Source of the DNA: a virus
Virus record (IMG/VR): IMGVR_UViG_3300045988_068671
Span: 20,518 to 84,517 of that record
Direction: 5' to 3' (one strand)
Length of the DNA stretch: 64,000 nt
A model generated the notes under the pieces. That model did no database searches and was not told where the DNA came from. It saw only the letters and a list, made by a program, of their open reading frames with translations. Positions 7,908 through 58,291 of this stretch are shown piece by piece; positions within the stretch are counted from its first letter, which is position 1, and every line of letters begins with the position of its first letter. The translations under genes were made by a program, and so were the position numbers.

Positions 7908-7908
7908 A

Positions 7909-12638: not shown

Positions 12639-12640
12639 AA

Positions 12641-13207
12641 TTAAAAGTCTCCTGGGTCAAAGCCGTCTGTAGCTCCACCTCTTACAGTAGATTGTTCTGT
12701 AAGCTCTTTCTTAACCTGCTCTTCTAGTGTTACTAATTCTTCATGAACTTTATGAAGAGTAGCCATTTCTTTCATTACCTTTTCAGCTTGAAAGACGGGT
12801 TTGCCATTATTATCACGTTCATTTAAATCTACTATAGTATCAAAATAATCAATAAACTAGTCAGCTGCTCTTTTAGCTGCTTCTAGAAGTTTTATTGATT
12901 TGTTAGAATCCTACAATGCTCGGTATTTTCTACAGGCTTCCCTGAATAACGGGTCATTAAATTCGGATTCAGATAGTCCAGAGTCACTAATAGCTTCATC
13001 ATGTCTTTCATGTTCTGAATATTGGCTATAAGGACTCTTCCAATCAATAGCTAGATAAATGTAAGACAATTCTCTAGTTACTCGTTCCTTGTCAACAGAT
13101 TTATCTCTCTGTATCAAAGCCTTAAACTCTTTAACTAGAAGAAGCTCTGGTTCATTTATCTCTAACTATTTAGTTAAAGTGTTATAATTAAATACATTCA
13201 TACTCAT
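12641..13207 (-). CDS. possible terminase small subunit (188 aa), TAG-recoded
   Basis: position immediately upstream of terL; TAA overlaps the terL ATG; contains piece 12911-13117. Confidence 0.4.
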
Positions 13208-13237
13208 CAATCATTAACATTAACATCTTTAATCTTT

Positions 13238-14455: not shown

Positions 14456-14665
14456 TATTCTTCTACTTTAATTAAGTCTTTTGTATTAAATACTGCTTCC
14501 TGCATTAATCCAGAATCAGTAAACCATCTACATCTTAGTCCTCGTAATCCTTGGTTATCTTTAAATAAAGCTGCTTCTCTTCTTAGAACAAGCATAACTG
14601 GAGAGTGCATTACTTTACACTACCGTAAAGTAACACAATCCCCAGGCTTAAAATAAACTTTTTCA

Positions 14666-18638: not shown

Positions 18639-18655
18639 AACTATTAATTTTGGCG

Positions 18656-18727
18656 TTGCCCTACTAGGATTCGAACCCAGACTAAATGATTTAGAGTCAT
18701 CTGTGCTGACCATTACACCATAGGGCA
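18656..18727 (-). tRNA. amber suppressor tRNA, anticodon CUA (reads UAG); resembles the window's tRNA-Gln
   Basis: full cloverleaf: acceptor TGCCCTA/TAGGGCA, anticodon arm GATGA-CTCTAAA-TCATT, T-loop TTCGAAT; D-arm identical to tRNA-Gln at 33540. Confidence 0.8.
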
Positions 18728-20278: not shown

Positions 20279-21071
20279 CACGACTCTCTCGTGTATAAAT
20301 AAGTCAAACGTGCAACTCTAAGGTATTACGAGTATAAATAAAATGCCCATATGAACTCCATCATTGGAACATTGGTCAACGGAGAAATCAACAACAAAAC
20401 AAAAAAAAATCAAAACCGAGTTAACTTTTGTAGTAGTTTTAGTTTTTATGTCTGGCTGATAGGAAAGACTATCATTTCTTTTGAAAATTCAGTTTCACAA
20501 AAGAAAATATGGGCAAGTAAGGAGAAGAATGTTCCACAAACTCAAAGGCAGATTTTCCTACTTTTTCCAGTTTTCAAAAAATCGCCAGTAGGACGAGTTT
20601 TATAACTCATACTACAATGATTATTTACTCTAACATTAGCCTATAAAAAGGCAACAAAAAGCGGGGTTACGCAGATAGCCCAATATCCGAAAATAACTGC
20701 TATTAATGAAAATGAGAGTTCGCAAACTTATCTCATGAGTAAGGAGGATTGAGCTATAAGATTGGTCACTTATAGCAATATATGAAAGTACTGCTGACAT
20801 ACCAGTAGACCATGTATGTCATATTTTTATATGTTATGCAATTGTATTAGAAGTTGCCTGGTATAAGCCGCTAGATTAATAAGGCTAGCTGATAAGAGGA
20901 TACCTCATAAGGGTATATTTCCTACCTCGAACTCAGTCGCAAGAATATGGATTAGCTACCTATATTCTTAGTGAACGTTAGTAACGTAGCTATTTGATTT
21001 TCAGTATAGGAAACTGAGAATTAAGTAGTTGAATAACTCTCTATCTTATACTAGTTGCCAAGATAGAGTTT

Positions 21072-21141
21072 TCCCCATTAGTATAATGCATTGCGCCTTC
21101 CTCTAAAGAAGGAGATTCTGGTTCAAACCTGGAGTGGGGAA
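21072..21141 (+). tRNA. second amber suppressor-like tRNA, anticodon CUA; D-arm atypical
   Basis: perfect anticodon arm CCTTC-CTCTAAA-GAAGG, T-loop TTCAAAC, acceptor TCCCCAT/GTGGGGA. Confidence 0.55.
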
Positions 21142-21284
21142 CTTAGTATTTGAGGACTACAGCTACTTGTAGGCTCTATTTGCTGTTAAGGACTATAATG
21201 GGTACGCCCAGAGACTATGTAATTGTTGTGAAACAATTCAAAGGAGAGTGGCACAGGAAGGTCTTTTGATAGTGTTCATTTTTT

Positions 21285-21310
21285 ATCCCCACAGCGGTGG
21301 GGATATTTTT
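21285..21310 (+). terminator. rho-independent terminator ATCCCCAC-AGCG-GTGGGGAT plus T5
   Basis: seen in sequence. Confidence 0.5.
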
Positions 21311-21404
21311 AAAACTCAGCTTAGGAGAGTATAAAATACCATCTGATGAGACTAGGACGAAATATACTTTGTATATAATGGTATAACTAATTAAAACTAA
21401 GAAG

Positions 21405-21632
21405 ATGAAAAAGAGATATATTATTCCAGATGAATTGAGATATTCCTCAGCAAGTTGTGGTTTTGAATGTCATAACTTTGAAGAAGTTCTAGAATTTGCA
21501 AAATATTTCCATTCTATTAATTGTCCTTTTAAAGTTGATGGTTTATACATTGAGCCAGAAGGACAGCTAATGCCTCTAAAATATTTTTCTGAGCAACGAG
21601 ATATATGGGAATATTTAATGCTTGAGTTTTAG
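21405..21632 (+). CDS. hypothetical protein (75 aa; ends TAG)
   Basis: ORF track. Confidence 0.35.
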   Translation: MKKRYIIPDELRYSSASCGFECHNFEEVLEFAKYFHSINCPFKVDGLYIEPEGQLMPLKYFSEQRDIWEYLMLEF

Positions 21633-21956
21633 ACAATATACAGAACGCCTATCGCTGTAAAGACTGGCAAACGCTCACAAGTTACTGTGAGCAAAAGATT
21701 GCACATGAAGATTGAACGCAGAAACATGTGGGAACTAAAGAAGAGAGGTCAGGCAGTTCAAGGTAGTTCCGCTTAGTGTTTATCCTACTAAGTATCACTA
21801 CACGGTCAGGTTGGAAGACTGACATTTAAAAAACTCAATAACTTCCCAAGACATTGAGGGCACCAGTTTCTTTATTATAAAACGCGCGCAAACTATCTAA
21901 TAGATGTGAGTTGCTGCTCATAAAGTTTTAGGTGTAAAATGCAATACTAGTTATAT

Positions 21957-22292
21957 ATGAAAGAGATAAAAATTCTAGAAACAACAAAAGTTCTCTCTGA
22001 TAGAGAGGCTGATTTACTTTGTTCCATATTATGGTCTTTAGGTATTTATCCAGAGATTACAGCACTTGAAAGGAAAAATAGAAACATTACACTGGCGAGT
22101 ATTCTTCCAGAAATGCAACCTAGGACAGCTAGCCGTATTAGAGCTATGTTGGATGATCAAGTTTATATCTCTCTCAACATTTTCATGGAAAACTATTCTT
22201 GGCGTGATTTCATGAAAATGCCTGGTGTTGGAAGGAAATCGCTAAGTGATTTAAGATCAGTTTTGCAAAAGTACGGATACAAAACATTCTAA
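21957..22292 (+). CDS. hypothetical protein (111 aa)
   Basis: ORF track. Confidence 0.5.
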   Translation: MKEIKILETTKVLSDREADLLCSILWSLGIYPEITALERKNRNITLASILPEMQPRTASRIRAMLDDQVYISLNIFMENYSWRDFMKMPGVGRKSLSDLRSVLQKYGYKTF

Positions 22293-22421
22293 CTCGACTT
22301 CGCGAGTATAAATAGGCTTTAGGCGGAGAGCGGTAGGTAGAATAGTCTACCTACGTAGTGTAAAATACTTGCTATTTAGCAAACAAATGTGTAGTATTCT
22401 ATAAATAAAAATTAAATATTT

Positions 22422-23612
22422 ATGGAAGACAAAGTAAAAGAATTTAGAGACAAAAATCCTATACTAGACTTCCTAGCAGGATTTATTCCTGGAGTTGGAG
22501 AAGCATAGGACGCACATGATTTTATTCATGCCGCAAAAGATAAAGATTATATAAGTATGGGTTTAGCAGCTACAGGCTTAATTATTCCAGGAATCACAGG
22601 AGGGCAAATAAAGAAACTTTCAAACGTTTTAATAAAGAAAGGTTGGCGAGAAACGAAGGGAAGAATATTTGACCCATAGGGAGTTGAATACATTAGGAAT
22701 AAAGAAGGAAAACTTCAAAGCTTATCATCTTACAAACAGACTCAAGCCGTAGAAAAAAGAATTGAGGAAAATAAGTCTAAGGCTAAAGCCAGATCTAATC
22801 AACAAAAGAAAGTAATCAAAGAACATAACGAAGAAGCAGAAAAGTTTAGACTTCGAACGGGACTTGATTATTCTTTAGAAAATTGGCAATCACTAGCTTC
22901 AGGACATAAGATGTCACAAGAGGAAATAGACTTATTCACCAAAAAAGCTTTTCCCTAGTTTGTTCAAACTTATAATGAACTAATTAAGTCTGGTAAGCTG
23001 ATAAGATAGCCTAGTGGAAGATATACTGCTAATGGAAGGAAGAATCTAAGCAACATAGAAACTATGTATTATATCTAGGCAAACTCTCCTCAAGGTAAGA
23101 ATCTTTTATATAATGGTATCACAATGAGGTCTGGAATTAAGGATAAACATAGTTTTGAAACCGGAAAAAATAACCAGAATTATGAGAAATGGTTCAGTTC
23201 TAATCCCAGAGGAGCAAAAGCTTACGGAGACTTTGCAATCTGGGGACTACCAGTTAAACCTTCTATAATTAATCCCAACTGGGATGACTAGATTAGGCTT
23301 ATAAAAAGGCAGAAAGCTAATCCATCTTCTAATAATTGGGCAGGAGGTCCAATAGGTGCTTATTTAAGCAAGGATAGAGCACGTTCTGTAAATATGTCTG
23401 AAGGTGTTCTTACAGACGATTATGCAACATAGGTTCTTAATTCTGACCCTATAAAAGGAGTATTTACTATAGTAGGTCCAGATATTCCTGTAAAATCTGT
23501 ATTTGGAGGATCTGGAATGTATGATGTTAGTCCCAAAAAGCTATATAATCCATTCTTATCTCTTACCATGATGGGAATGCTAGGTTATAAACATTTAAAT
23601 AAAGATGAATAA
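22422..23612 (+). CDS. hypothetical protein (about 396 aa) with 7 in-frame TAG, in a region the ORF track shows as empty
   Basis: single frame ATG-to-TAA, length divisible by 3; TAG at 22506, 22677, 22956, 23007, 23076, 23289 and 23430. Confidence 0.55.
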
Positions 23613-34552: not shown

Positions 34553-34567
34553 CTAGAGAATTAAAAA

Positions 34568-34984
34568 TTGGAATTTATGAATTATCAGTATTTCGGATTG
34601 TTTTTAAATGAACATAATAGGAATGAGCTTATGAAAATCATTTTTGCTAATCCTATTATAGCTAATCTGGTCCTTCAAAGAGGAAGTACTTTATATCTAG
34701 ACCATTGTACTCTGCTCCACAGAAATCAAAACGACAAAGAGATATATGACTCTCTTGTAAAGAAGATTGATGAATCATGGATGGTAGAAGTAAATGGGAT
34801 AGGTTTCTCTAACAAAGCAATAGCTTTTAGAGTTACTATACCAGACTTGCCTTGTGCAAATGCTAAGCCACATATTACTATTTGCACAATCAATGGAGGA
34901 AAACCAGTTGATAGCAATGGAATATGCGAGTGGATTTCTATTCCCAAACTCAATATTTGTTGTGAAATAAAATTAGTGAAATAA
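34568..34984 (+). CDS. hypothetical protein (138 aa)
   Basis: ORF track. Confidence 0.45.
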   Translation: MEFMNYQYFGLFLNEHNRNELMKIIFANPIIANLVLQRGSTLYLDHCTLLHRNQNDKEIYDSLVKKIDESWMVEVNGIGFSNKAIAFRVTIPDLPCANAKPHITICTINGGKPVDSNGICEWISIPKLNICCEIKLVK

Positions 34985-35433
34985 TGTGGTCAAGAGAAAG
35001 TCCAATGAAAGAATATGCCAGGAAACATCCTGGCTGTTCTCTTCAAGAGTATTGTGAATACTTAGATAATATTGCTAGAGAGGAAGCAGAAAGAAGGAGA
35101 CTAAAAGAAGAAGAAAATAATCAACTTCTAAAAAGTTTTGAGGGAAAATGCTTTCAAATAAACTTCAATAGACAATCATTTGGTTATTTCAAGATAACTA
35201 AAGATATTACTGCCTTTAGAGAAGATGTTAAAGAAGATTTCTATGAAGTTTTCATAGATAGCAATACAACTAGAATAAGTCTTGAAAAGAAGAGAATGAT
35301 AAATCGTTATTGGCTTCCTGGGCAGGGAAGTGAAAAGTGTACAATAGTTCCTGAAGAATTGTTCAATAAGGTAGTCGAGTATTATCAAGAGATGTGTACT
35401 ATGGCTGAGAAAATAAGAGACAGGGAATTGTAA
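34984..35433 (+). CDS. hypothetical protein (149 aa)
   Basis: ORF track. Confidence 0.45.
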   Translation: MWSRESPMKEYARKHPGCSLQEYCEYLDNIAREEAERRRLKEEENNQLLKSFEGKCFQINFNRQSFGYFKITKDITAFREDVKEDFYEVFIDSNTTRISLEKKRMINRYWLPGQGSEKCTIVPEELFNKVVEYYQEMCTMAEKIRDREL

Positions 35434-35437
35434 CCTT

Positions 35438-35519
35438 GGGGTAGTGGCGGAATTGGTAGACGCGCTAGACTTAGGATCTAGTACAGAAATGTGTGAGGGT
35501 TCGAGTCCCTCCTACCCTA
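35438..35519 (+). tRNA. tRNA-Leu(TAG)
   Basis: class II; loop CTTAGGA. Confidence 0.8.
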
Positions 35520-35750
35520 CAACTTTTATTCGATTATAGATTATGAAAGAGTTAAGTGAAATTATTCAAGAATTGGTAGAAAATAGCAACTCCATGAATC
35601 AGATTGATTCAAAAACTGCTATACAGTACGTTGTGGAGGCTTACGAAGCTGGAATGGATAAGGCTAAAGAACTTATCAAAGACAGTGGAGAACTTTAATT
35701 AACTGAATGTTCTGAAACATTCATATTAAATAATAATTAAAAATAAAGAA

Positions 35751-36935
35751 ATGAACAAAGTTTGGATGTGTTCCGGGTCTACATACACCCAAGTAGGCTC
35801 AGGTTACAAGGTTTCGGAATCTCTTCCGGTTGGTATTTACAGTATTAGTCTGACAATGACAGGTTATCACCTGGATAAGTATGCAGACAAGTTCGTATTT
35901 CCGTACAAGATGTATGGACTGCAGGAAGATTTCATAGACCATGTAATCAAAACTTATAATAACACAGAAGGAAACTTGGGAATCATGTTTACTGGTACAA
36001 AAGGTACTGGAAAGACTGTCACAGCTAAAGAATTAGCTAATAAGTTGAACCTTCCTGTTATTATCGTAAAGGATATGGGAGACCATAATCAATCTATGAT
36101 TGAGTTTCTCTCTGGTATTGAGGGAGACTGTGTTCTCTTCCTAGATGAGTTTGAAAAGAACTTCAGCGAGTCGGATTCTACAATCCTCCAAATTATGGAT
36201 GGAGTTTATAACTCTAAGTATCGTAAGGTATTCTTGTTGACTACTAATGCAATGTCTATCAACGAGAATATGGTAGGACGTCCGTCTAGAATCCGCTACG
36301 TCAAGAAGTTTGAAAATCTTGATTTGAAGGTTGTAAACGAATATCTAGACGATGCCCTGGAGGTTCCAGAAGCACGTCAAGATTTACTTGACTTCATTGA
36401 TTCTTTGACTATATCAACTATTGATATTCTCAAAACTATAGTTAATGAAGTTAACATTCATGGAATTGAAGGTTTGAAAAAGGCTAAGAGTTTCTTCAAC
36501 GTAGTAACTAATGAGTATGAGTATTCTTGTATCAGAGGTTACGCTTACACTGGAGAAATTGAACAAGACAAGAATAAGTTCTCTATTGAAAACTTCTCCA
36601 AGGCTGTTGAGAGATTTAATAATCCTATACCTAAGCCTATTGTTGATGACGAGGATAACTGTACTATAGAGGAAAGAAAAGCCCTCAACGAATACTATGA
36701 GTATCGTCGTCATAACTTCCACAGCCTGTCGTATAACTTTATCTATTCTTCTACCAAGTTCAGCAATCTTAAGGTAGGAGACGACTTCTACAATGACGAG
36801 ATTATCGCTATTGACAAGAAGTTGAATGTTATTGTTACTAAGGACGGTGGCGAAATTAACTACTGGTGGATTAAAGATCCTAACAGTAAACCATCTCTGT
36901 ATCGTACAGGAAGATACGATTCTTTGGTACTTTAA
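35751..36935 (+). CDS. AAA+ ATPase
   Basis: Walker A GTKGTGKT, Walker B VLFLDEFE. Confidence 0.7.
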   Translation: MNKVWMCSGSTYTQVGSGYKVSESLPVGIYSISLTMTGYHLDKYADKFVFPYKMYGLQEDFIDHVIKTYNNTEGNLGIMFTGTKGTGKTVTAKELANKLNLPVIIVKDMGDHNQSMIEFLSGIEGDCVLFLDEFEKNFSESDSTILQIMDGVYNSKYRKVFLLTTNAMSINENMVGRPSRIRYVKKFENLDLKVVNEYLDDALEVPEARQDLLDFIDSLTISTIDILKTIVNEVNIHGIEGLKKAKSFFNVVTNEYEYSCIRGYAYTGEIEQDKNKFSIENFSKAVERFNNPIPKPIVDDEDNCTIEERKALNEYYEYRRHNFHSLSYNFIYSSTKFSNLKVGDDFYNDEIIAIDKKLNVIVTKDGGEINYWWIKDPNSKPSLYRTGRYDSLVL

Positions 36936-38818: not shown

Positions 38819-38903
38819 ATCCGTGTGGGTGAATGGTTTAGCCATCAGTCTGCAAAACTGAAAAGAGAAATCTTTAATGAGGGTTCGAATCCCTCCACGG
38901 ATT
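38819..38903 (+). tRNA. unusual tRNA: GCA (Cys) anticodon with a 17-nt class II-type variable arm
   Basis: acceptor ATCCGTG/CACGGAT, TCAGT-CTGCAAA-ACTGA, variable stem AAAGA-GAAA-TCTTT. Confidence 0.6.
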
Positions 38904-38923
38904 CTAATTTTAAATTTAAAAAT

Positions 38924-39705: not shown

Positions 39706-39784
39706 CGTGGAGTAGAGAAGTGGTCATCTCGCTAGGCTCATAACCTAGAAATCGTCATAAACGGTTCGAATCCTACCTCCGCAA
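39706..39784 (+). tRNA. tRNA-like element: CAT anticodon, C1xA72, aberrant T-stem (possible degenerate or initiator-like)
   Basis: D-arm GAGA/TCTC, CTAGG-CTCATAA-CCTAG, TTCGAAT. Confidence 0.3.
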
Positions 39785-40028
39785 CGAAACTCCTTTTGTG
39801 GCTCTGAATTAGATTAATTATTAACAATTTTAAACTTTGATGTTATGAAGAAAGTAATTAATGTTGTGAAGAAAGCTGCTAAGTGGTATTTTGAACAGAG
39901 TTCTAAGAGCTATACATGGTTAGTTTCTGGAACTATTCCGCCTCCTTATAGAGGTCTAGAGTAAAGATACTACTAAAAGGTAAGTACCAAAGGGGTACTT
40001 ATCTACACCCGTGGAGAAAATTAACTAT

Positions 40029-40629: not shown

Positions 40630-40702
40630 GGGCCGTTAGCTCAAATGGCTAGAGCGCTGGTTTTGCACACCGGAAGATAGGGTTCGAGTCCCTGCGTGTC
40701 CA
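40630..40702 (+). tRNA. tRNA-Ala(TGC)-like with G3:U70 but a partly mismatched acceptor
   Basis: loop TTTGCAC. Confidence 0.45.
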
Positions 40703-42308: not shown

Positions 42309-42591
42309 TAAGACAATCACAACACATCTTACAAATATGAAAGATGGAGATGTAGCTGAGATTGTAAATTGGTTCTGTGACGAGGAAATGGAGCCTGGAA
42401 CTATAGTTCAGAGGTACGGAGATGCTTTAATTATCATTGGTGGGCGTAGCGGTCTATGCTATCCTAAGCTGTTTACTGTTGAGGATACGCGTCGTTTGCT
42501 TACTTGTAAGGTCACAATTTTGCCTCCTGGCTCAACTATAATGCTATAATTTCTTTTCTCCAGTTTTCTAATCAGAGATAAACTGGAACAT

Positions 42592-43154
42592 GGGCCTACT
42601 TGGATTTGACAGGCGATTACGAATTATAAGGACGTGTAGAGCGCAATCTCTTTAAACGAAGAAAACAAATAACTGCAGAAATTGCACCTGTAAGAATGGC
42701 AGCCTAAGCTGCTGACTTATTAATAGACAATATTAATCAAGTCGGGTTAATGGGGAGACCTAGAAACAGAAGAGGTTTGTATCTAAGTGTTATAACGAGA
42801 CCTTCAGGGAAGAATCATAGTACCTACAGGTTACAGTGAAGCTTAGATGCATTAACTTGAAAGCCAAAGGTTAGTAGAGCTGAAATCTCCACTGCCTATC
42901 TATGGGCTACAAATAGACGTTCTCCAACGTAAATGGAGTGGTGGAAGAATGACTTCTAGTCAGCCCCCAGTTTGGTAGTTTGTAAATTAGTTAGTAGGAG
43001 GACTGCTGGTTCACCTCTACTGTAAAGAATCCAGCTCTTCTAATAAAACTATCTAAATGCTAGAACTCACTAGCTGATGTAATAAAAATGAGACGCACGT
43101 TATCCTTGTAATAAGGGTTGTTTGGACACGGGTTCGACTCCCGTTAGGTCCACA
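42592..43154 (+). ncRNA. ssrA: tmRNA (ssrA-like); tag reading frame 42675-42707 (AEIAPVRMAA-stop)
   Basis: 5' GGGCCUACUUGGAUUUGACAGGCG and 3' GGACACGGGUUCGACUCCCGUUAGGUCCA closely match E. coli tmRNA termini; G3:U70. Confidence 0.7.
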
Positions 43155-43178
43155 TGACAGGGCTATAGTTCAACCGAT

Positions 43179-43250
43179 TGGGATGTAGTTTAACGGTTAG
43201 AACAAGAAACTGATAATTTCTAGACGGCAGTTCAACTCTGCCCTTCCCAA
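43179..43250 (+). tRNA. tRNA-Ile(GAT)
   Basis: loop CTGATAA. Confidence 0.8.
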
Positions 43251-43340
43251 CTAACACTGTAAATAATATGTAGAAAATTTCTGAACAAATCAAACAACAA
43301 GTAAAAATCCTCAGAGAAATATGGTACTGGGATTAAATAT

Positions 43341-43400: not shown

Positions 43401-43952
43401 GTGAATCGAGAACAATCTCTTAAATTGTATTATGAGAATCCTAACCACTGTAAGGAATGTGGTAAGGTAATCGAAGTACTAGATAATCAGAGGGTCGCAG
43501 ATGTGAGGAAGAAACAGTTTTGTAGTCATTCGTGTGCTGCTTCTTACAATAATAGAGGTAGGATAAAGCACGATGAAAACAAGATATGTCCTAGATGTGG
43601 TAAACCTAAGCATAAAGATTCAGAAATGTGTCGTAGTTGCTGGGAAGAACTTAATGGAATTGGTAACAAAACATTAGGTTATTATACATCTGGGCAGAAG
43701 TACTTATCATCTAAATGTCAAGAAATAAGGACTAATGCTCGTAGAGTATTAGAAAGTTCCGAACGTGAGAAAGTATGTCAATATTGTCATAATCATGAAT
43801 TTGATGCAATACTTGAAGTACATCATCTTAAAGGAATATTAGAATTTGACGAAGACACTCTTATTAAGGAGATTAACAACGAGAATAATTTAGTATGGTT
43901 ATGTCCGAATCACCATATTATGTTAGAGAAGGGTTTAATTAGTCTGGAGTAA
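43401..43952 (+). CDS. HNH homing endonuclease
   Basis: HHLKG...NLVWLCPNHH. Confidence 0.7.
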   Translation: MNREQSLKLYYENPNHCKECGKVIEVLDNQRVADVRKKQFCSHSCAASYNNRGRIKHDENKICPRCGKPKHKDSEMCRSCWEELNGIGNKTLGYYTSGQKYLSSKCQEIRTNARRVLESSEREKVCQYCHNHEFDAILEVHHLKGILEFDEDTLIKEINNENNLVWLCPNHHIMLEKGLISLE

Positions 43953-45757: not shown

Positions 45758-46373
45758 AGTCATTGCCGAAGCTCTGGAAGATTATGAAAATAATTTCAAC
45801 CATAAGATAAATATCTTAGAAAGCAAGATTATTCTCTATGAAAAGGAGAGAAAAGCTATTATAAGACATCTTAAGGAAGGGAATATAGAATTATTAAAGA
45901 GTTATTTTGGAATTGAAAAATGAAGGAATACTACCTGATTAAGTGCAGAAATAATATCCCATTCATTATAGGTCAGTATGATACCGAAGAAGATGCCAGG
46001 AAGGCGAAGAATCGTGAGAATCCTAATTCCGAGCTTATGATAGTAGTTAACATAGAAAAGGATAAGCCTGAGAAAACATCATGATTACTGAGATTTCATA
46101 CGATAAGGACTTATTAGGAAAGGAAGTTAGGGGTACAAATACTTCCTACTGGGGTATATCAGCTTTACAGGCAGGCCACGATGACATCCGCCAAGATATT
46201 TCAAAATATTTATTTAGAGACTGTGTGGTAGATAGTGGACATAAAGGGATAATTATAGGGTTCGAAGATAATAACCAATTCTTTGATTACTATTATATAG
46301 TCTATGTCCCAGAACTTGATAAAGTTGTTTATCAACTATGTAATGATGCAAGATTTATTAATTCTATTGAGAT

Positions 46374-46871
46374 ATGAAAAAGAGAGTTTTAATTATTTTA
46401 ATGATTAGTATTGTATTCGGATTTGCAACTGGTTATTCCTTGCACCACTGGATACATTCTGCGAGGTTTCCAGAGGAGAAAATTATGCTGATGCCGGAAC
46501 ATCCATTCTATTTGATGGAGGAGGTGAATGAGGAAGTATTGTATAATACTCTTAAACACTATGATTTCCCAAGTCCTGCTATCATAACAGCTCAGGCTAT
46601 TCTAGAATCTGGTAACTTCAAGTCTAAACTTTGTAAGGACAACAATAATTTGTTCGGACTGTATAATTCAAGAACGATGTCCTATTTCAAGTTTGATAGT
46701 TGGATAAGCTGTGTATTTGCTTATAAGCAATTTATTCTAAGTAGGTACGATCCAGAAGAGGACTATTATAGATTCCTAGATAGGATTGGATATGCCGAAG
46801 ATTCTCTATATGAGAGTAAGGTTAAAGAATTAGAGTTAGATATTATCAACAAGTATGGAAGCCCAGATTGA
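46374..46871 (+). CDS. peptidoglycan hydrolase (glucosaminidase/FlgJ-like domain) with N-terminal TM; candidate SAR endolysin
   Basis: AIITAQAILESGNF...NNLFGLYN. Confidence 0.6.
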   Translation: MKKRVLIILMISIVFGFATGYSLHHWIHSARFPEEKIMLMPEHPFYLMEEVNEEVLYNTLKHYDFPSPAIITAQAILESGNFKSKLCKDNNNLFGLYNSRTMSYFKFDSWISCVFAYKQFILSRYDPEEDYYRFLDRIGYAEDSLYESKVKELELDIINKYGSPD

Positions 46872-53197: not shown

Positions 53198-53592
53198 AGA
53201 GGCTATGAAGTTCTATCCGTTTGATTATGGTTTTGTTCTCTCCCTAGAGAAACAAGCTTTAATTAGAATGTATGAATACTTCAAAGTATCTAGAATTGCT
53301 GAAGGTAACGAAGTTGTTGAAAAGAATCTAAAACTCGCACTAGGACTTTTAGATATTGTTCTAGAGATAGATTCTGCCTATCATTGTGATTTCAGACCTG
53401 GGTCTGAAGGATTCGTAGATAGGCACATAAACATTAAGAACTGGAAACGATTCTGGCCTAAAGCTGCTGATCTTGATTTGAGTAAACCTATTCTTCAAGA
53501 CCATTTGAGAAGAGAAAAAGCCTGGTACTTGTACAATAAACTTAGGTTTGAACGTATGAGAACTTGGTGGGATTAATTTAACTAATTTAATT

Positions 53593-54609
53593 ATGAAGAG
53601 AATTTTTAGTATTATTTGTTTGTGTTTGATGTGTGCATTTGCTAGCGCACAAGTTGTTGAGACTGGAAGTATGAAGGATAACTGGTATATTTCTGGTAAT
53701 GTTGGAACTACTATTTGGGATAACCATAGAAGTTGGGCAGAACCAAATGATGTACTAGTAAACATTGCTATTGGTAAGGAGATTACTCCTATCTTTGGCT
53801 TGGAGTTAGACATGATGGCTGGAATGAACCAAGGAAATAAAACATTCTTTGATTCACATAATTTGACAGCTAACGTTACTACCAATCTTACTAACCTGAT
53901 ATGTGGATATAACGGAGATAGACGTCTGTTTGAGCCTATATTAATCATTGGTGCTGGTTGGTATCATACTTATGGAGGTGTCTATAATAATGTATCCGCC
54001 CGTGGAGCCGTTAGATGTAACTTTAATATCTCTAATAGATGGGCATTAAATGTTACTCCTGAGTATATGTTACTTCCCAAGACTTCCCCTCTGAATCATG
54101 AGTTTAACATCTATATTGGTGCTACCTATCGCTTTAAGTCTAGCAAAGGGGACTTTCCAATTATGAAGTTGTATAGTGATGCCGAGGTTGAAAGCCTAAA
54201 CGCTTCTATTAATGAGTTGAGAGCCAAGAATGAGGAACTTATGGCTCGTAAACCAATAGAAATTGTTAAGACGGACACAATCGAAATTACTAAAGTAGAG
54301 CTTTTGACTCCAAAAATTCAATTCCTTCAAAATTCTTCAGAGATTTCTAAAACTTCCAATGTGGCTGTCTCAGAACTAGCTTCCTATATTTCTAATAGTG
54401 GAAAAACTTATGTGATTGAGGGATATGCTTCGGAAGAAGGTCCAGAAGAGTTTAATAATAACCTTGCTGTAGCTAGGGCAGAATCTATGAAGAAGGCTCT
54501 GATTAGCTATGGTGCTCCAGAGGATAAGTTGGTTGTTAAGGGATGTGGAATTACCACTGAATTTGGAGATAATGAATTTAATCGTATCGTAATAATTTCT
54601 GAACAATGA
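53593..54609 (+). CDS. outer-membrane OmpA-family protein (signal peptide, OmpA-like C-terminus)
   Basis: VIEGYASEEGPEEFNNNLAVARAESMKKAL. Confidence 0.6.
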   Translation: MKRIFSIICLCLMCAFASAQVVETGSMKDNWYISGNVGTTIWDNHRSWAEPNDVLVNIAIGKEITPIFGLELDMMAGMNQGNKTFFDSHNLTANVTTNLTNLICGYNGDRRLFEPILIIGAGWYHTYGGVYNNVSARGAVRCNFNISNRWALNVTPEYMLLPKTSPLNHEFNIYIGATYRFKSSKGDFPIMKLYSDAEVESLNASINELRAKNEELMARKPIEIVKTDTIEITKVELLTPKIQFLQNSSEISKTSNVAVSELASYISNSGKTYVIEGYASEEGPEEFNNNLAVARAESMKKALISYGAPEDKLVVKGCGITTEFGDNEFNRIVIISEQ

Positions 54610-55046
54610 AGTATAAGAAAAAAGTAGCTTGGTTAAAGGCAAAGCAAGCATGGTGGGATAAACAAGGAAAAGATTTTCAGGCTGCAACTACCAGACCTGG
54701 GTCTGTTAAAACTCGATAAATCATGGTTGCATTTATAATTGTGTGCATAATGTTTGCCGCGTATATTTATTATGACCCGTATGTAGACATTACAGAGGAT
54801 AATGTACTACTATGGTATAATAAAAGTGGCAATAGAGAATATATTATTCTATGGTCGAGAAAAACTTAATTAAGGCATTTGTTGCCGTTCTGTTAATCGT
54901 TGTGATTTACAACGTCAGCTTATGGTTATTATCCGAATCATTGTATGCTGCAAATATCTTGGGGTTGTTACTATTACTAGTGGCAATCCCAAGTTTAGTT
55001 TATAGGATATTCAAATACATTAAGAAACATTATTTAAATAAGGAAA

Positions 55047-55874
55047 ATGAAGACAATTATTAAGCTTTTGTGTGTATTAACTTTGGTGTTTGGCTTGTCT
55101 AGTTGTGGCTACGAGAGAATTGATGCTGGTTACGAAGGCATTAAGGTGAATCTATACGGAGACGGTAAGGGAGTAGACGATGTGTCTCTTGTTACTGGCG
55201 CGGTGTGGTATAATCCTGTTACTACGGCTGTATATGAATATCCTACATTCGTACAGACTGTGGACTATCCTCCTTTCAGTATTAATGCTAAAGATGGATC
55301 ATCATTTACTGTAGACCCTACAATTTCTTTGAAGATTGTTGACGGGAAATCACCAGAAGTATTTAAGAAGTATAGAAAGGAAGATATTGTAGAGGTAATT
55401 AACACTACTTTGTATAATTACGTAAAGAATGCTTTTCGCATTCAGCTGAATAACTATACTACTGATGAACTAGTAAGTAAACGTGAGGAGTTTGAGAAGT
55501 CTATAGAAGATAGACTGTCAAAGGAACTCTTGGCTGAGAATTTTCAGCTTGAACAAATGACTTCTGGTCTTCAATATCCACAGACGCTAGTCAATTCTAT
55601 TGATGCTAAGAATGCTGCAATTCAACAGGCTTTGAAGGCAGAGAATGAAGTTAAGACTATTGAGGCAGAAGCTAAAAAGAAAGTAGCAGCTGCACAAGGA
55701 GAGGCAGAAGCTCTTAAGATTAAGGGTGATGCAGAAGCTGAATATAATAGAAAGATTTCAGCATCTTTGTCAGTTCTCATAGTTCAGCAGGATATGATTA
55801 AGAAGTGGGATGGAAAACTTCCTACTTATGGTCAGGTTCCCACCTTATTTAAAGACGTAGCTAATAACAAATGA
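55047..55874 (+). CDS. SPFH/prohibitin-like lipoprotein (lipobox LSSCG)
   Basis: band-7-like core plus AEAEAKKK coiled coil. Confidence 0.55.
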   Translation: MKTIIKLLCVLTLVFGLSSCGYERIDAGYEGIKVNLYGDGKGVDDVSLVTGAVWYNPVTTAVYEYPTFVQTVDYPPFSINAKDGSSFTVDPTISLKIVDGKSPEVFKKYRKEDIVEVINTTLYNYVKNAFRIQLNNYTTDELVSKREEFEKSIEDRLSKELLAENFQLEQMTSGLQYPQTLVNSIDAKNAAIQQALKAENEVKTIEAEAKKKVAAAQGEAEALKIKGDAEAEYNRKISASLSVLIVQQDMIKKWDGKLPTYGQVPTLFKDVANNK

Positions 55875-56190: not shown

Positions 56191-56715
56191 ATGGAAATTC
56201 TTAAATGTATGTGTATAACACTGAGACATCTTAGGCGAATACTTAGACATAAGTTTTGGGTAGCTTATTACTGTTTTCAGTTAGGTTTATACAAACAGGG
56301 CATCTTGCACGACTTATCTAAATTCGGATGGTATGAGTTCTCTCGTTCTGTAAAATTTTACGATGATGACACATCTCCCTTAAACAAGGAAAAAGAAATT
56401 CTAGGATATTCTAGGTCTTATTTACATCACAGAGGAAGAAATCCACACCATTATGAATACTGGGTAACTAAGCTAGACATTGGCGGTGTTCCAGTGAAGA
56501 TGCCTAAAGAGTATGCTCTAGAATTGGTATGCGATTATCTGGCTGCTGGTAAAGTATACAACGGTAATAGTTTTCAAGGAGAATATAACTGGTGGATTAA
56601 GTATATAAATTCTCCTAGGGCTATCCATCCAGAAACGAAGGAATTTATCACTCAGTGTTTTAAGAATTTAGCTAGTGGTAAAGGCATGAAAAGTTTATTA
56701 ACAATTAGTTATTAA
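56191..56715 (+). CDS. hypothetical protein with possible HD-like His motifs
   Basis: LHDLSKF ... HHRGRNPHH. Confidence 0.3.
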   Translation: MEILKCMCITLRHLRRILRHKFWVAYYCFQLGLYKQGILHDLSKFGWYEFSRSVKFYDDDTSPLNKEKEILGYSRSYLHHRGRNPHHYEYWVTKLDIGGVPVKMPKEYALELVCDYLAAGKVYNGNSFQGEYNWWIKYINSPRAIHPETKEFITQCFKNLASGKGMKSLLTISY

Positions 56716-56728
56716 AATAATTTTTAGA

Positions 56729-58291
56729 ATGGAAATAATTAATGCAACAGATGGCTATAAATTGGGCCACCATAGAATGTATCCAGAAGGTACTGAACAA
56801 GTTTACAGTAATTGGACTCCTAGAAGTAACAAATACTTTCCAGAAGCCACTGAAGGTTCTGTAGTATTCGGAATCCAATATTTAATTAAGAAGTATCTGA
56901 TTGATGAATTTAATCAGAATTTCTTTGGATTGCCCAAAGAGAAAGCTGTAGAAATGTTTTATCGAAGAGTTCATAACTTCGTGGGAATTGAGTCCGTAGG
57001 ATATAAACATATTGAAGCCTTGTATGATTTAGGTTATCTTCCCATTCGCATTAAAGCGTTGCCAGAAGGTTCAATATGCCCTATTAGGGTTCCTATGATG
57101 ACTATTACTAATACAAAGTCAGAGTTCTTCTGGTTAACTAATTATTTAGAGACTTTGATTAGTTGTACTCTGTGGATGCCTTGCACCTCTGCTACTAGAG
57201 CAAGACTCTATAAGAATGAACTTAAAAGACACGCAGTACATACTGGATTTCCAGAAGATGTAAATCTGGATTTCTTGTGTCATGACTTCTCTATGAGAGG
57301 AATGGCTGGTTTAGAGGCCGCTATCATTTCTGGTATGGCACATATGACTTCGTTTGTTGGAAGTGAGACCATTCCAGCTATTGCTGCTCTAGAAGAATAT
57401 TATGGTGCAAATTCTGACAATGAATTAATTGCCGCCACTGTTCCAGCTACAGAACATTCTGTAATGTGTGCTGGTGGAGAAGAGGATGAACTTCAAACCT
57501 TTAAGCGATTAATTAACGAATTGTATCCATCTGGGTTCGTTTCTATAGTTTCTGATACTTGGGACTTCTGGAATGTTATTGAAAACTTCCTTCCCAAATT
57601 AAAGAAGGATATTATGGCTCGTGATGGACGTGTAGTTATTCGTCCAGATAGCGGAGACCCTGTTGATATTATTTGTGGTTTAAGAACTAATCCTCACTTC
57701 CATACTAGAATGAAAGAGGGTAAGTATTATTGTTGCTACGCTCCATTTAACGATGATGCTGAGTATGTAGAAGTTTCAGAAGGTCAATACTACGGTGCTT
57801 ATTATATGCTTGGTAAGATTTTTGGATGGAATACTACTTCTAAGGATTATCGCTATCCTAGTACGAAAATAGGTTTGTTGTATGGTGATTCTATCACTCT
57901 TGAACGTCAGAAGCAAATCTATATGCGACTTGAGAATGCTCATATGGCAGCTTGCAATCTTGTTCTAGGAGTAGGTTCATTTTCATATCAGTATGCAAGT
58001 AGAGATAGCTTAGGCTTTGCAATCAAAGCTACTGCTTGTGTAGTTAATGGAGAATTGAAAGAAATATTCAAACATCCTAAAACAGATGATGGAACTAAAA
58101 ATTCTCTTAAAGGTCTAATTGCTGTCTATCAGGACGTTAATGGCGTTTACTATGCTGAAGACCAGGTAACTCCTGAGGTAGAAAGCGGAGGCTGCTTAGA
58201 GACTGTGTTCGAAGATGGCGTCCTTAAAAAGGAGTACACTCTTAAAGAAATTAGACAGCGGATTAATGAAGGGCTTTATGGAAAGTTTTAA
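56729..58291 (+). CDS. nadV: nicotinamide phosphoribosyltransferase
   Basis: NAMPT-like N-terminus DGYKLGHHRMYPEGT and overall length. Confidence 0.75.
   Translation: MEIINATDGYKLGHHRMYPEGTEQVYSNWTPRSNKYFPEATEGSVVFGIQYLIKKYLIDEFNQNFFGLPKEKAVEMFYRRVHNFVGIESVGYKHIEALYDLGYLPIRIKALPEGSICPIRVPMMTITNTKSEFFWLTNYLETLISCTLWMPCTSATRARLYKNELKRHAVHTGFPEDVNLDFLCHDFSMRGMAGLEAAIISGMAHMTSFVGSETIPAIAALEEYYGANSDNELIAATVPATEHSVMCAGGEEDELQTFKRLINELYPSGFVSIVSDTWDFWNVIENFLPKLKKDIMARDGRVVIRPDSGDPVDIICGLRTNPHFHTRMKEGKYYCCYAPFNDDAEYVEVSEGQYYGAYYMLGKIFGWNTTSKDYRYPSTKIGLLYGDSITLERQKQIYMRLENAHMAACNLVLGVGSFSYQYASRDSLGFAIKATACVVNGELKEIFKHPKTDDGTKNSLKGLIAVYQDVNGVYYAEDQVTPEVESGGCLETVFEDGVLKKEYTLKEIRQRINEGLYGKF

What the first reader, a model, noticed from the sequence alone, without database searches (positions are those of the whole stretch)
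42592..43154. tmRNA-like gene of unusual length
The 5' end (GGGCCUACUUGGAUUUGACAGGCG) and 3' end (GGACACGGGUUCGACUCCCGUUAGGUCCA) are near-copies of the E. coli tmRNA tRNA-like domain termini, including a G3:U70 pair. Between them is a short ORF-like segment GCAGAAAUUGCACCUGUAAGAAUGGCAGCCUAA followed by a GCUGCUGA helix, as in tag reading frames. The predicted tag ends in MAA rather than LAA, and the element is about 560 nt, much longer than typical tmRNAs. A tmRNA in a genome whose early phase must cope with TAG-containing late messages is intriguing, although the connection to recoding is speculation.
Basis: partly seen in the sequence, partly recalled or inferred. Interest (0 to 1): 0.75.

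Follow-up and report, generated by a model that had tools for sequence, protein, structure and literature searches.

The report
Oversized tmRNA gene of gut phage
The window, from a large crAss-related gut phage that reads TAG as an amino acid in its late genes, carries a real ribosome-rescue RNA (tmRNA) gene about 165 nt longer than its likely hosts' tmRNA, one of at least 73 distinct such phage tmRNAs that the usual annotation program misses.

Summary
Window 42592-43152(+) is a complete one-piece tmRNA gene. It matches Rfam RF00023 over the full model (68.8 bits against a threshold of 47, E 1e-24). The acceptor stem has 7 bp with G3:U70, and the T-arm and long helix H2 are present. The resume codon is GCA at 42675 and the tag is AEIAPVRMAA, ending at TAA.

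It is 561 nt long. Sixty-nine Bacteroidota tmRNAs measured here are 352-425 nt. There is no intron, no ORF and no permutation.

The extra length is an enlarged pseudoknot domain. It has conserved blocks specific to this lineage and four variable modules that are swapped between otherwise near-identical phages.

I recovered 87 complete copies (73 distinct, 507-601 nt) from large IMG/VR viral contigs. All but two degenerate copies have G3:U70, and every called tag ends in RMAA. Compensatory changes support the tRNA-like domain and H2. ARAGORN misses the gene.

Most likely it is a working phage tmRNA that uses host SmpB and AlaRS to free ribosomes stalled during infection. The link to TAG recoding is plausible, because suppressor read-through creates tmRNA substrates, but it is untested.

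Verdict: a new variant of a known kind, of moderate interest.

The parts
42592..43152 (+). Complete one-piece tmRNA gene, 561 nt to the discriminator A. CCA is not encoded.
   Evidence: Rfam RF00023, 68.8 bits, E 1e-24, full model. MFE z-score -3.05. 73 distinct homologues.
42592..42598 (+). Acceptor stem, 5' strand GGGCCUA. G3 forms the G:U alanine-identity pair.
   Evidence: Pairs with 43145-43151. Over 71 distinct sequences G3:U is invariant and 2 of 7 pairs show compensatory change.
42610..42637 (+). Helix H2, 5' strand (RNA positions 19-46).
   Evidence: Pairs with 43095-43124. 13 of 24 pairs show two-sided compensatory changes and 93-100% of cells are canonical.
42638..42661 (+). PK1 region. 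A 4-bp hairpin AGAG/CUCU with loop CGCAAU; the second stem is at best 2-3 bp in this copy.
   Evidence: Stem invariant in 71 sequences. Sister subtypes have a 6-bp stem plus a loop-to-downstream pairing with a compensatory change (GUA/UAC versus GCA/UGC).
42675..42707 (+). Tag reading frame, AEIAPVRMAA then TAA. It is preceded by UAACU, with the conserved U(-5)A(-4).
   Evidence: Rfam alignment. ARAGORN on shortened constructs. Family tags. Upstream context.
42698..42713 (+). Hairpin H5, GGCAGC-CUAA-GCUGCU, with the stop codon in its loop.
   Evidence: 100% canonical in 71 sequences, but no variation, so neither supported nor contradicted by covariation. Also flagged as a stem-loop.
42714..42743 (+). 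Second hairpin after the tag (H5b), 12 bp.
   Evidence: All 7 inner pairs show two-sided changes across the family, though only 78% of cells are canonical. The close relatives show A-U to G-C exchanges.
42744..42778 (+). Conserved block GGGUUAA..GAGACCUAGAAACAGAAGAGGUU, with the small hairpin ACCU/AGGU.
   Evidence: Conserved at 90% or more across 71 sequences. The motif AAACAGAAGAGGT is in 66 of 71 phage copies and 0 of 69 host tmRNAs.
42778..42851 (+). Variable module V1, a long branched hairpin closed by UGUAUCUAAG/CUUAGAUGCA. At 75 nt this is one of the longest versions.
   Evidence: 27 distinct V1 modules of 28-76 nt with six unrelated closing stems, each self-complementary. Own-partner duplex energy averages -9.3 kcal/mol against -3.5 +/- 1.9 for mismatched partners.
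42852..42882 (+). Conserved block UUAACUUGAAAGCCAAAGGUUAGUAGAGCUGAAA.
   Evidence: Conservation profile. Its proposed pairings (Pa, P3) are not significantly supported.
42883..42917 (+). Variable module V2.
   Evidence: The segment containing it varies from 56 to 93 nt in the family and is unalignable between cassette types.
42918..42945 (+). Conserved block CGUUCUCCAACGUAAAUGGAGUGGUGGA, with the hairpin CUCCA/UGGAG (42922-42938).
   Evidence: 5 bp, 2 pairs with compensatory change, 96% canonical. The CGTT[CT]T[CT]C part is in 70 of 71 phage copies against 1 of 69 host tmRNAs, and the GTGGT[GA]GA part in 66 of 71 against 3 of 69.
42950..42962 (+). Small hairpin UGACU-UCU-AGUCA.
   Evidence: A hairpin is predicted at this position in every cassette type (UGAC/GUCA, GACC/GGUC). 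The segment is 20-81 nt in the family.
42970..42981 (+). 5' strand of a long-range helix, in the block AGUUUGGUAGUUU.
   Evidence: Pairs with 43045-43058. 8 bp, 98% canonical, 3 variable pairs all kept paired, 1 two-sided change. The strand is G/U-rich, so alternative partners are not excluded.
42984..43042 (+). Variable module V3. It contains a hairpin whose loop can pair downstream (a candidate inner pseudoknot).
   Evidence: 44-82 nt in the family. The analogous hairpin plus loop-to-downstream pairing in the L001 type was found by eye on the sequences and was not scored statistically.
43045..43058 (+). 3' strand of the long-range helix (AAAACUAUCUAAAU).
   Evidence: The motif is in 66 of 71 phage copies and 0 of 69 host tmRNAs.
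43059..43092 (+). PK4-like element: hairpin GCUAG-AACUCA-CUAGC, plus loop CUCA pairing with UGAG at 43089-43092.
   Evidence: The Rfam alignment places PK4 here. 2 of 5 hairpin pairs are compensatory, and the CUC/GAG core of the second stem is invariant.
43095..43124 (+). Helix H2, 3' strand.
43128..43144 (+). T-arm, ACGGG-UUCGACU-CCCGU.
   Evidence: 4 of 5 pairs compensatory and 100% canonical in 71 sequences.
43145..43152 (+). Acceptor stem 3' strand UAGGUCC plus discriminator A, followed by CAU rather than CCA.
   Evidence: Only 3 of 73 distinct family members encode CCA.

Best explanation
This is a functional phage-encoded transfer-messenger RNA.

Proposed mechanism (all steps inferred):
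1. It is transcribed with the phage's tRNA array, in the block of genes that are mostly free of in-frame TAG.
2. It is trimmed like a tRNA and given CCA by the host enzyme.
3. Host alanyl-tRNA synthetase charges it with alanine through the G3:U70 pair.
4. Host SmpB and EF-Tu carry it into ribosomes stalled at the ends of broken or stop-less mRNAs.
5. Translation resumes at GCA (42675), adds A-AEIAPVRMAA and terminates at TAA, which frees the ribosome.

Infection probably produces many such stalls. Sources would include host mRNA decay and, once the phage's amber-suppressor tRNAs act, read-through of TAG stop codons to mRNA 3' ends. Extra rescue capacity would keep ribosomes available for phage protein synthesis.

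Shown here: the gene's identity, the conserved fold, the conserved tag frame and the existence of a lineage.

The extra ~165 nt is an enlarged pseudoknot ring, made of lineage-specific conserved blocks and exchangeable structured modules. It is not an intron.
For: - Identity: full-length Rfam tmRNA hit above threshold. Ten family members that were scanned also pass.
- Defining features present: 7-bp acceptor with G3:U70, discriminator A, T-arm, H2, the resume context U(-5)A(-4), a 10-codon tag with a hydrophobic ..MAA end, and an in-frame TAA.
- Purifying selection: 87 complete copies, 73 distinct, and all but two degenerate copies keep a 7-bp acceptor with G3:U70. All 71 called tags are 9-11 codons and end in RMAA. 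Two-sided compensatory changes occur in 4 of 5 T-arm pairs, 2 of 7 acceptor pairs and 13 of 24 H2 pairs.
- Phage-borne: it sits in an array of 27 tRNA genes, next to TAG-recoded terminase and portal genes. The family is found on viral contigs, many of them 90-200 kb.
- Host compatibility: the tRNA-like ends resemble Bacteroidota tmRNA.
- Background from the literature: phage tmRNAs are known in huge phages (PMC7162821). Read-through of stop codons by suppressor tRNA creates tmRNA substrates (PMC3985003, citing Ueda 2002).
- Not an intron: no intron or ribozyme family and no ORF. The surplus is spread over four modules present in every relative.
Against: - No expression, processing, charging or tagging data exist.
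- No SmpB gene was found in the window or in the loci fetched by then, L001-L063. Dependence on host SmpB is therefore assumed.
- PK1, the only pseudoknot needed in E. coli, is weak in this copy: a 4-bp stem, and a second stem of 2-3 bp at most.
- Most of the central domain has no validated secondary structure. Helices P3 and X failed my controls, and the variable core folds only marginally better than shuffled sequence (z -1.73).
- Whether an RMAA end is a degradation signal is unknown.
Confidence: 0.75

Rival explanations
1. The phage tmRNA is a dedicated part of the TAG-recoding programme rather than general rescue capacity. One version: it competes with host tmRNA (tag GETNYALAA, a strong degron) at ribosomes paused on UAG or run off read-through mRNAs. 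It would then attach an RMAA tag with a different proteolytic fate, or protect phage late mRNAs from decay linked to host tmRNA. The enlarged conserved pseudoknot blocks would bind a phage or host factor that gives this specificity.
For: - Late genes carry 2-34 in-frame TAGs each, and there are two tRNA(CUA) genes in the window. tRNA(CUA) also lies near family tmRNAs in L069 and L100.
- All family tags end in RMAA, whereas the native Bacteroides tag is GETNYALAA and drives aggressive degradation (bioRxiv 10.1101/2025.03.18.644028).
- In an E. coli strain lacking RF1, tmRNA acts at UAG codons and blocks propagation of UAG-containing viruses (PMC6207430).
- The lineage-specific internal blocks are in 65-70 of 71 phage copies and at most 3 of 69 host tmRNAs.
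- In the 31 loci found through the tRNA-like ends, a search that did not constrain the stop codon, tag stop codons are TAA or TGA and never TAG.
Against: - No test for enrichment of tmRNA in recoded against non-recoded phages could be run.
- Phage tmRNAs also occur in other viral contigs where I saw no suppressor tRNA in the short flanks.
- TAA is the usual tmRNA stop codon anyway.
- From memory and unverified: MAA-ending tags exist in some Bacteroidota and Chlorobi, so RMAA may simply be a working degron.
Confidence: 0.15
2. The gene is a replacement for host tmRNA that becomes unavailable during infection. Host tmRNA might be cleaved by a host defence nuclease that targets tRNA-like RNAs, or shut off with host transcription. 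This is the logic proposed for phage tRNA arrays. The rapidly exchanged central modules would reflect escape from such a nuclease.
For: - The gene sits inside a tRNA array that also encodes an RNA-repair-like protein (tRNA_lig_CPD domain, 34565-34984).
- The central 268 nt is only ~42% identical (effectively unalignable) between phages whose flanks are 95-100% identical and whose tRNA-like and tag parts are 98-100% identical (L011 and L024 against the window).
Against: - No nuclease that targets tmRNA is identified here.
- Pseudoknots 2-4 are known to be dispensable and replaceable in vitro (PMC3985003), so relaxed constraint plus recombination at conserved anchors explains the mosaicism without any arms race.
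- The flanking DNA is itself mosaic in many loci.
Confidence: 0.07
3. It is not a working gene. It would be either a decaying captured copy of a bacterial ssrA gene, or the ssrA-derived attachment-site fragment that temperate elements integrating at tmRNA genes carry.
For: - Many mobile elements integrate at ssrA and carry part of it (general knowledge).
- One family copy (L054) has a broken 3' acceptor strand.
- PK1 is weak in this copy.
Against: - The gene is full length, with both halves and an intact tag frame.
- 73 distinct copies preserve the fold through compensatory changes and preserve the RMAA tag.
- Only the ~35-50-nt ends resemble host tmRNA, so it is not a recent capture or an attachment-site duplicate.
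- It lies in a tRNA array of a crAss-related phage.
- I did not scan every ORF for an integrase.
Confidence: 0.03

Closest known systems
Bacterial one-piece tmRNA (Rfam RF00023), in particular Bacteroidota ssrA (tag GETNYALAA)
   Same: - Same gene order and parts: tRNA-like domain with G3:U70, H2, PK1, a resume codon preceded by U(-5)A(-4), a short tag ending in two alanines, a hairpin at the stop codon, further pseudoknots and a T-arm.
- The 5' and 3' ends are recognisably similar to Bacteroidota tmRNA.
- Some family tags (GNTEVRMAA, GETEGYLRMAA) start like GETNYALAA, and several are 9 residues long.
   Different: - Length: 561 nt (family 507-601) against 352-425 nt, mode 395, in 69 Bacteroidota tmRNAs.
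- The tag ends in RMAA, not ALAA.
- The internal conserved blocks are absent from host tmRNAs.
- There are two hairpins after the tag.
- The pseudoknot domain is roughly doubled and partly made of exchangeable modules.
- It is encoded by a phage.
Phage-encoded tmRNAs of huge/jumbo phages (Al-Shayeb et al. 2020, PMC7162821) and other viral contigs found here (L038, L039, L051, L062)
   Same: It is a tmRNA carried by a large phage among tRNA and other translation-related genes. The presumed role is ribosome rescue during infection.
   Different: - Those tmRNAs were found with ARAGORN, and the ones I measured are 396-494 nt with other tags.
- This lineage is longer and shares the RMAA tag.
- ARAGORN misses this lineage: it made no call in 31 of 32 family loci and one call with a spurious tag.
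- PMC7162821 also reports SmpB in huge phages. None was seen in this window or in the loci fetched by then.
tmRNA genes lengthened by a group I intron in the T-loop (clostridial example; recalled from memory, not checked)
   Same: An over-long tmRNA gene.
   Different: Here the T-loop is uninterrupted (GGGUUCGACUCCC) and no intron family matches even at E<=10. The surplus lies in the pseudoknot domain and includes blocks conserved across the lineage.
Two-piece (circularly permuted) tmRNA (Rfam RF04321)
   Same: A structural variant of tmRNA.
   Different: The permuted model scores 25.7 and 18.6 bits, below its threshold of 47. The gene order here is standard, with the 5' acceptor strand first and the T-arm last.

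Membership tests
tmRNA (RF00023, one-piece) | Significant full-length match to the family covariance model. | tested here: met
   68.8 bits against a gathering score of 47, E 1.1e-24, model positions 1-374. Ten relatives that were scanned score 55-96 bits.
tmRNA (RF00023, one-piece) | tRNA-like domain: 7-bp acceptor stem joining the 5' and 3' ends, G3:U70 alanine identity pair, discriminator A, and a T-arm with a GUUCGAnUC-type loop. | tested here: met
   for this copy. Across 71 distinct sequences G3:U is invariant, the T-arm is 100% canonical with 4 of 5 pairs compensatory, and the acceptor has 2 of 7 compensatory pairs.
tmRNA (RF00023, one-piece) | Long helix H2 connecting the tRNA-like domain to the pseudoknot and mRNA ring. 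| tested here: met
   24 pairs, 13 with two-sided changes, 93-100% canonical. An unbiased scan of column pairs recovered it as the top helices.
tmRNA (RF00023, one-piece) | Pseudoknot PK1 just upstream of the resume codon. | tested here: inconclusive
   This copy has a 4-bp hairpin, and its second stem is at most 2-3 bp. Sister subtypes have a 6-bp stem plus a loop-to-downstream stem with a U-A to C-G exchange.
tmRNA (RF00023, one-piece) | Internal tag reading frame: resume codon without a start signal, the upstream U(-5)A(-4) context, a short tag with a hydrophobic end plus Ala-Ala, and an in-frame stop. | tested here: met
   UAACU|GCA..., AEIAPVRMAA then TAA. 71 of 73 distinct relatives give 9-11-residue tags that all end in RMAA.
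tmRNA (RF00023, one-piece) | Further pseudoknots (PK2-PK4) between the tag and the 3' strand of H2. | tested here: inconclusive
   Supported: several helices (V1 stem, E hairpin, long-range helix, PK4-like hairpin). Not supported: the other proposed helices Pa, P3 and X. The overall topology of the ~350-nt domain was not resolved.
tmRNA (RF00023, one-piece) | Partner protein SmpB available. | not testable with these tools
   No SmpB-like ORF in the window or in loci L001-L063 by tblastn. Only 64 kb of a roughly 185-190 kb genome is visible. Host SmpB is assumed.
tmRNA (RF00023, one-piece) | Alanylation and trans-translation activity. | not testable with these tools
   Needs biochemistry or proteomics.
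Two-piece / permuted tmRNA (RF04321) | Permuted gene order, with the acceptor 3' piece upstream of the coding piece. | tested here: not met
   Only sub-threshold partial hits (25.7 and 18.6 bits against 47), and the gene order is standard.
Intron-interrupted tmRNA gene | A group I or group II intron, or another self-splicing element, inside the gene. | tested here: not met
   No intron or ribozyme family at E<=10 in 42500-43260. No ORF of 30 aa or more. The T-loop is intact.

The most novel reading that the evidence does not exclude
This lineage of 507-601-nt tmRNAs is a phage-specific adaptation of trans-translation to a split genetic code. Its invariant RMAA tag and its conserved, lineage-only pseudoknot blocks would let the phage RNA, rather than host tmRNA (tag GETNYALAA, a strong degron), handle ribosomes that pause at UAG or run off the ends of messages once amber suppression is switched on. 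That would change the fate of the tagged proteins or of the phage late mRNAs. If so, tmRNA would be a working component of stop-codon reassignment in phages.
Probability: 0.15. Interest if true: 0.8.

Novelty: new variant of a known kind. Interest (0 to 1): 0.5.

Why it matters
1. Annotation. Phage and virome pipelines call tmRNAs with ARAGORN (PMC9805569, PMC7162821, PMC12291355). ARAGORN gave no call in 31 of 32 loci of this family and a wrong tag in the other, so a lineage found on at least 87 large viral contigs (its GenBank twins are from human faeces) goes unseen. Its only two GenBank phage records are unannotated fragments.

2. RNA biology. These appear to be among the longest uninterrupted tmRNAs. 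They are 110-200 nt longer than the 69 Bacteroidota tmRNAs measured here. Conserved blocks alternate with structured modules that are swapped between near-identical genomes. This is a natural experiment on what the pseudoknot ring is for.

3. Recoding. The gene offers a concrete handle on how phages that recode TAG cope with the ribosome stalling and read-through that suppression must cause. Possible tests are tag proteomics, reporters ending in RMAA against ALAA, and a census by genetic code.

Tried and rejected
- Intron or mobile insertion: rejected. No Rfam intron or ribozyme hit at E<=10, no ORF, and an intact T-loop.
- Permuted or two-piece tmRNA: rejected.
- A pure ARAGORN length cut-off: only partly right. 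ARAGORN fails on the native RNA and on versions shortened by up to 120 nt, and succeeds at 424 nt or less. It also called a 516-nt relative (L026) and a 494-nt unrelated phage tmRNA, the former with a spurious tag. The failure therefore seems to come from where it looks for the tag, not from a hard size limit.
- Secondary structure of the central domain:
  - Whole-alignment RNAalifold and per-type MFE folds were inconsistent between cassette types.
  - Helix P3 (42871-42882 with 43032-43043) and helix X (42886-42892 with 42939-42945) looked good by eye. They failed the shuffle and cross-partner controls, so I do not claim them.
  - Helix Pa (42744-42750 with 42852-42858) shows only one-sided changes.
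- Recent capture from the host: rejected. A profile of 69 Bacteroidota tmRNAs matches only the terminal 35-50 nt.
- Phage SmpB: tblastn found nothing.
- Promoter and terminator scan around the gene: no more sites than chance. The consensus used is sigma-70 type and is not suited to Bacteroidota.
- Literature: searches for tmRNA together with crAss-like, Crassvirales, recoding, alternative genetic code or crAss returned only tool and pipeline papers and general reviews, and 'phage-encoded tmRNA' returned none. No description of this lineage was found.
- Not used: the metagenome scan and the large protein-database searches. Nothing here depended on them.
Full report

Yes. The sequence at 42592-43152(+) begins GGGCCUACUUGGAUUUGACAGGCG and ends GGACACGGGUUCGACUCCCGUUAGGUCC-A.

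Rfam's tmRNA covariance model (RF00023) matches 42592-43155 across the whole model (positions 1-374). The score is 68.8 bits against a gathering score of 47, with E 1.1e-24. A permissive rescan of the region gives the same result.

The permuted-tmRNA model gives only partial hits below threshold, 25.7 and 18.6 bits against 47.

The minimum-free-energy fold of the 561-nt RNA forms the 7-bp acceptor stem (G1-C560, G2-C559, G3:U558 and so on). It also forms the T-arm and a long helix H2. The z-score is -3.05, and none of 100 dinucleotide shuffles folds as well.

**2. The tag.**

The Rfam alignment puts the resume codon at GCA, 42675-42677. The frame is GCA GAA AUU GCA CCU GUA AGA AUG GCA GCC UAA, giving AEIAPVRMAA.

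ARAGORN found 27 tRNA genes in the window but no tmRNA. When I removed 140 nt or more from the centre of the RNA, leaving 424 nt or less, ARAGORN called a tmRNA with exactly this tag.

The codon is preceded by UAACU. All 71 relatives examined keep U(-5)A(-4). From memory, these are the positions known to set the frame in E. coli.

The stop codon lies in the loop of the hairpin GGCAGC-CUAA-GCUGCU, and a second 12-bp hairpin follows it.

CCA is not encoded: after the discriminator A comes CAU.

**3. What genome is this?**

- On the minus strand, the genes at 787-14467 each carry 2-34 in-frame TAG codons. They give long reading frames only if TAG is read as sense. Most large plus-strand genes from about 19.5 kb onward have none.
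- Read with TAG as Gln, 10278-12656 is a large terminase subunit and 7909-10152 is a portal protein.
- The terminase is 26-29% identical to those of Crassvirales phages from human and pig faeces.
- Two tRNAs with a CUA anticodon, which would act as amber suppressors, lie at 18655-18727 and 21072-21142.
- GenBank holds two unannotated "Bacteriophage sp." fragments from human faecal samples that match: MT837398 covers the whole gene at 100% identity, and MT836666 matches only its 3' 124 nt at 100%.
- Many of the related IMG/VR viral contigs are 180-192 kb.

The tmRNA gene lies in the mostly TAG-free block, inside the tRNA array. tRNA-Ile begins 27 nt downstream of it.

**4. A whole lineage, all of it long.**

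Exact-pattern scans of viral contigs used the 3' end, the 5' end and the end of the tag. Local profile searches followed. Together they gave 87 complete copies, 73 of them distinct.

- Lengths are 507-601 nt, including the discriminator.
- All but two degenerate copies (L054 and one other) have a 7-bp acceptor stem with G3:U70, and all have discriminator A. Only three encode CCA.
- ARAGORN run on centrally shortened versions returned tags for 71 of the 73: GNTEVRMAA (25), ATYSEVRMAA (11), AEIAPVRMAA (10), AERSDYRMAA (7), GNTTYRMAA (4) and others. Every one ends in RMAA.

Across 71 distinct sequences the canonical helices are strongly supported:

| Helix | Pairs with two-sided compensatory change | Canonical cells |
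|---|---|---|
| T-arm | 4 of 5 | 100% |
| Acceptor | 2 of 7 | 96% |
| H2 | 13 of 24 | 93-100% |

An unbiased scan of all column pairs returns these helices at the top. This rules out a decaying pseudogene.

**5. Comparison with likely hosts.**

The native Bacteroides SsrA tag is GETNYALAA (bioRxiv 10.1101/2025.03.18.644028). In the first 80 of these, ARAGORN found 69 tmRNAs of 352-425 nt, with a mode of 395.

A profile built from these matches the phage RNAs only over the last ~35 nt and the first ~30-50 nt.

The phage lineage's internal conserved motifs compare as follows:

| Motif | Phage copies (of 71) | Host tmRNAs (of 69) |
|---|---|---|
| AAACAGAAGAGGT | 66 | 0 |
| CGTT[CT]T[CT]C | 70 | 1 |
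| GTGGT[GA]GA | 66 | 3 |
| AGTTTG[GA]T[AG]G | 65 | 0 |
| AAACTA[TC]CTA | 66 | 0 |

The tRNA-like domain is therefore host-like, which would suit use of host AlaRS, SmpB and EF-Tu (inference). The rest is an old lineage of its own and not a recent capture.

**6. Where the extra length is.**

There is no intron or ribozyme family in the region even at E<=10. No ORF of 30 aa or more lies on either strand between 42549 and 43144. The T-loop is intact.

The conservation profile over 71 sequences shows a constant 5' part of ~172 nt and a constant 3' part of ~110 nt. Between them is a central domain in which conserved blocks alternate with variable modules:

| Module | Window coordinates | Range in family | This copy |
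|---|---|---|---|
| V1 | 42778-42851 | 28-76 nt | 75 nt |
| Segment containing V2 | 42862-42917 (V2 is 42883-42917) | 56-93 nt | 56 nt |
| Hairpin segment | 42946-42968 (hairpin 42950-42962) | 20-81 nt | 23 nt |
| V3 | 42984-43042 | 44-82 nt | 67 nt |

Helices that are supported:
- The V1 closing stem. There are 27 distinct modules with six unrelated stem sequences, each self-complementary. Own-partner duplexes average -9.3 kcal/mol against -3.5 +/- 1.9 for mismatched partners.
- The hairpin CUCCA/UGGAG at 42922-42938, with two compensatory pairs.
- A long-range helix, 42974-42981 with 43046-43053. It has 8 bp, is 98% canonical, and three variable positions stay paired.
- A PK4-like hairpin at 43059-43074.

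Not supported:
- Helices I called P3 and X failed the shuffle and cross-partner controls.
- MFE and RNAalifold predictions for the centre disagree between cassette types.
- The variable core alone folds only marginally better than shuffles, z -1.73.

I therefore describe the domain as an enlarged, partly resolved pseudoknot ring and do not offer a full model.

**7. Cassette exchange.**

In L011 and L024 the 1.5 kb on either side is 95-100% identical to the window, and the tRNA-like and tag parts are 98-100% identical. The central 268 nt is only ~42% identical, which means it cannot be aligned.

Whole structured modules are therefore exchanged between otherwise near-identical phages, presumably by recombination at the conserved blocks. 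E. coli pseudoknots 2-4 are dispensable and interchangeable in vitro (Nameki 2000, via PMC3985003). Relaxed constraint is thus the simplest reading. An arms-race reading is possible but has no support here.

**8. How it most likely works.**

Shown here: the gene's identity, the conserved fold, the conserved tag frame, its location in a phage, and the existence of a lineage.

Inferred: the RNA is transcribed with the tRNA array, processed like a tRNA, and completed with CCA by the host enzyme. Host AlaRS charges it through G3:U70. SmpB and EF-Tu deliver it to ribosomes stalled on stop-less mRNAs. There it adds A-AEIAPVRMAA and terminates at UAA.

No SmpB was detectable in the window or in the loci fetched by then, but that was a weak test.

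Phage tmRNAs, together with SmpB, have been reported in huge phages and interpreted in the same way (PMC7162821).

**9. The recoding link.**

- Read-through of stop codons by suppressor tRNAs generates tmRNA substrates (Ueda 2002, as cited in PMC3985003).
- In an E. coli strain with unassigned UAG, tmRNA acts at UAG codons, and its tagging is what blocks UAG-containing viruses (PMC6207430).

A phage that turns on amber suppression should therefore raise the load of stalled ribosomes, and it may not want the host's strong degron tag on its products.

Consistent observations:
- The RMAA tag is invariant, where the host tag ends in ALAA.
- Tag stop codons are TAA or TGA.
- tRNA(CUA) genes lie near family members in L069 and L100.

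None of this is a test. I give the specialised-recoding reading about 15%.

**10. Novelty and score.**

tmRNA is a well-known family and phage-borne tmRNAs are known.

New here is a coherent lineage of unusually long tmRNAs in large crAss-related gut phages. It has its own tag signature, its own conserved core blocks and exchangeable modules. Standard annotation does not see it: ARAGORN made no call in 31 of 32 family loci and one wrong call.

Six literature searches found no description of it. Its only GenBank phage records are unannotated.

I class it as a new variant of a known kind, with interest 0.5.

Noticed in passing
window 20849-22360: The plus-strand amber-suppressor tRNA(CUA) at 21072-21142 is bracketed by three structured RNAs: RAGATH-14 (20849-21042, 183 bits), a RAGATH-1 hammerhead ribozyme (21313-21382) and a Pistol ribozyme (22292-22360). 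Self-cleaving ribozymes next to the suppressor tRNA might process or time its release. A second tRNA(CUA) lies at 18655-18727(-).
   Followed up: no
window 787-14467 (-): A block of late or structural genes, including terminase 10278-12656 and portal 7909-10152, with 2-34 in-frame TAG codons per gene. Most large plus-strand genes from about 19.5 kb on have none. This is a clear split in genetic code between gene blocks.
   Followed up: partly
window 34565-36935: Inside the tRNA array there is an ORF with a tRNA-ligase cyclic-phosphodiesterase domain (34565-34984; Pfam tRNA_lig_CPD, E 6e-8) and an AAA-type ATPase (35730-36935). These may be an RNA-repair module that guards the phage tRNAs and tmRNA.
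   Followed up: no
window 38819-38904, 39706-39785, 40630-40702: Unusual tRNA genes: tRNA-Cys of 86 nt and tRNA-Met of 80 nt (a long extra arm or an insertion), and a tRNA at 40630-40702 that Rfam calls (39.5 bits) but ARAGORN does not.
   Followed up: no
window 43401-43952: An HNH-endonuclease-like ORF lies immediately downstream of the tmRNA and tRNA-Ile genes. The flanks of the tmRNA gene differ by insertions and deletions between otherwise similar phages, which fits homing-endonuclease traffic in the tRNA array.
   Followed up: partly
window 23599-24090, 46371-46871, 53560-54609, 55038-55874, 56702-58291: Accessory genes: DUF1810, a glucosaminidase-domain protein, an OmpA-family beta-barrel protein (pointing to a Gram-negative host), an SPFH/Band 7 protein, and nicotinamide phosphoribosyltransferase.
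   Followed up: no
L038 4989-5928; L039 2405-5566: Unrelated phage tmRNAs of 406-408 nt. In L038 the tmRNA and a GOLLD RNA (306 bits) lie side by side. In L039 the GOLLD RNA (318 bits) is about 2.4 kb upstream of the tmRNA.
   Followed up: no
L026 2620-3135; L054 7390-7954: ARAGORN calls the 516-nt family member in L026 but assigns a spurious tag (VQQKDDRATVLNLKAKG**) in place of ATYSEVRMAA. The L054 copy has a disrupted 3' acceptor strand (…CCCGTTGGCGTT), so it is a degenerate copy or a misassembly.
   Followed up: partly
L069 4470-4542; L100 2908-2980: tRNA(CUA) suppressor genes occur in the tRNA arrays flanking other members of this tmRNA lineage. The tmRNA and the amber suppressor therefore co-occur in more than one sub-lineage.
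   Followed up: no
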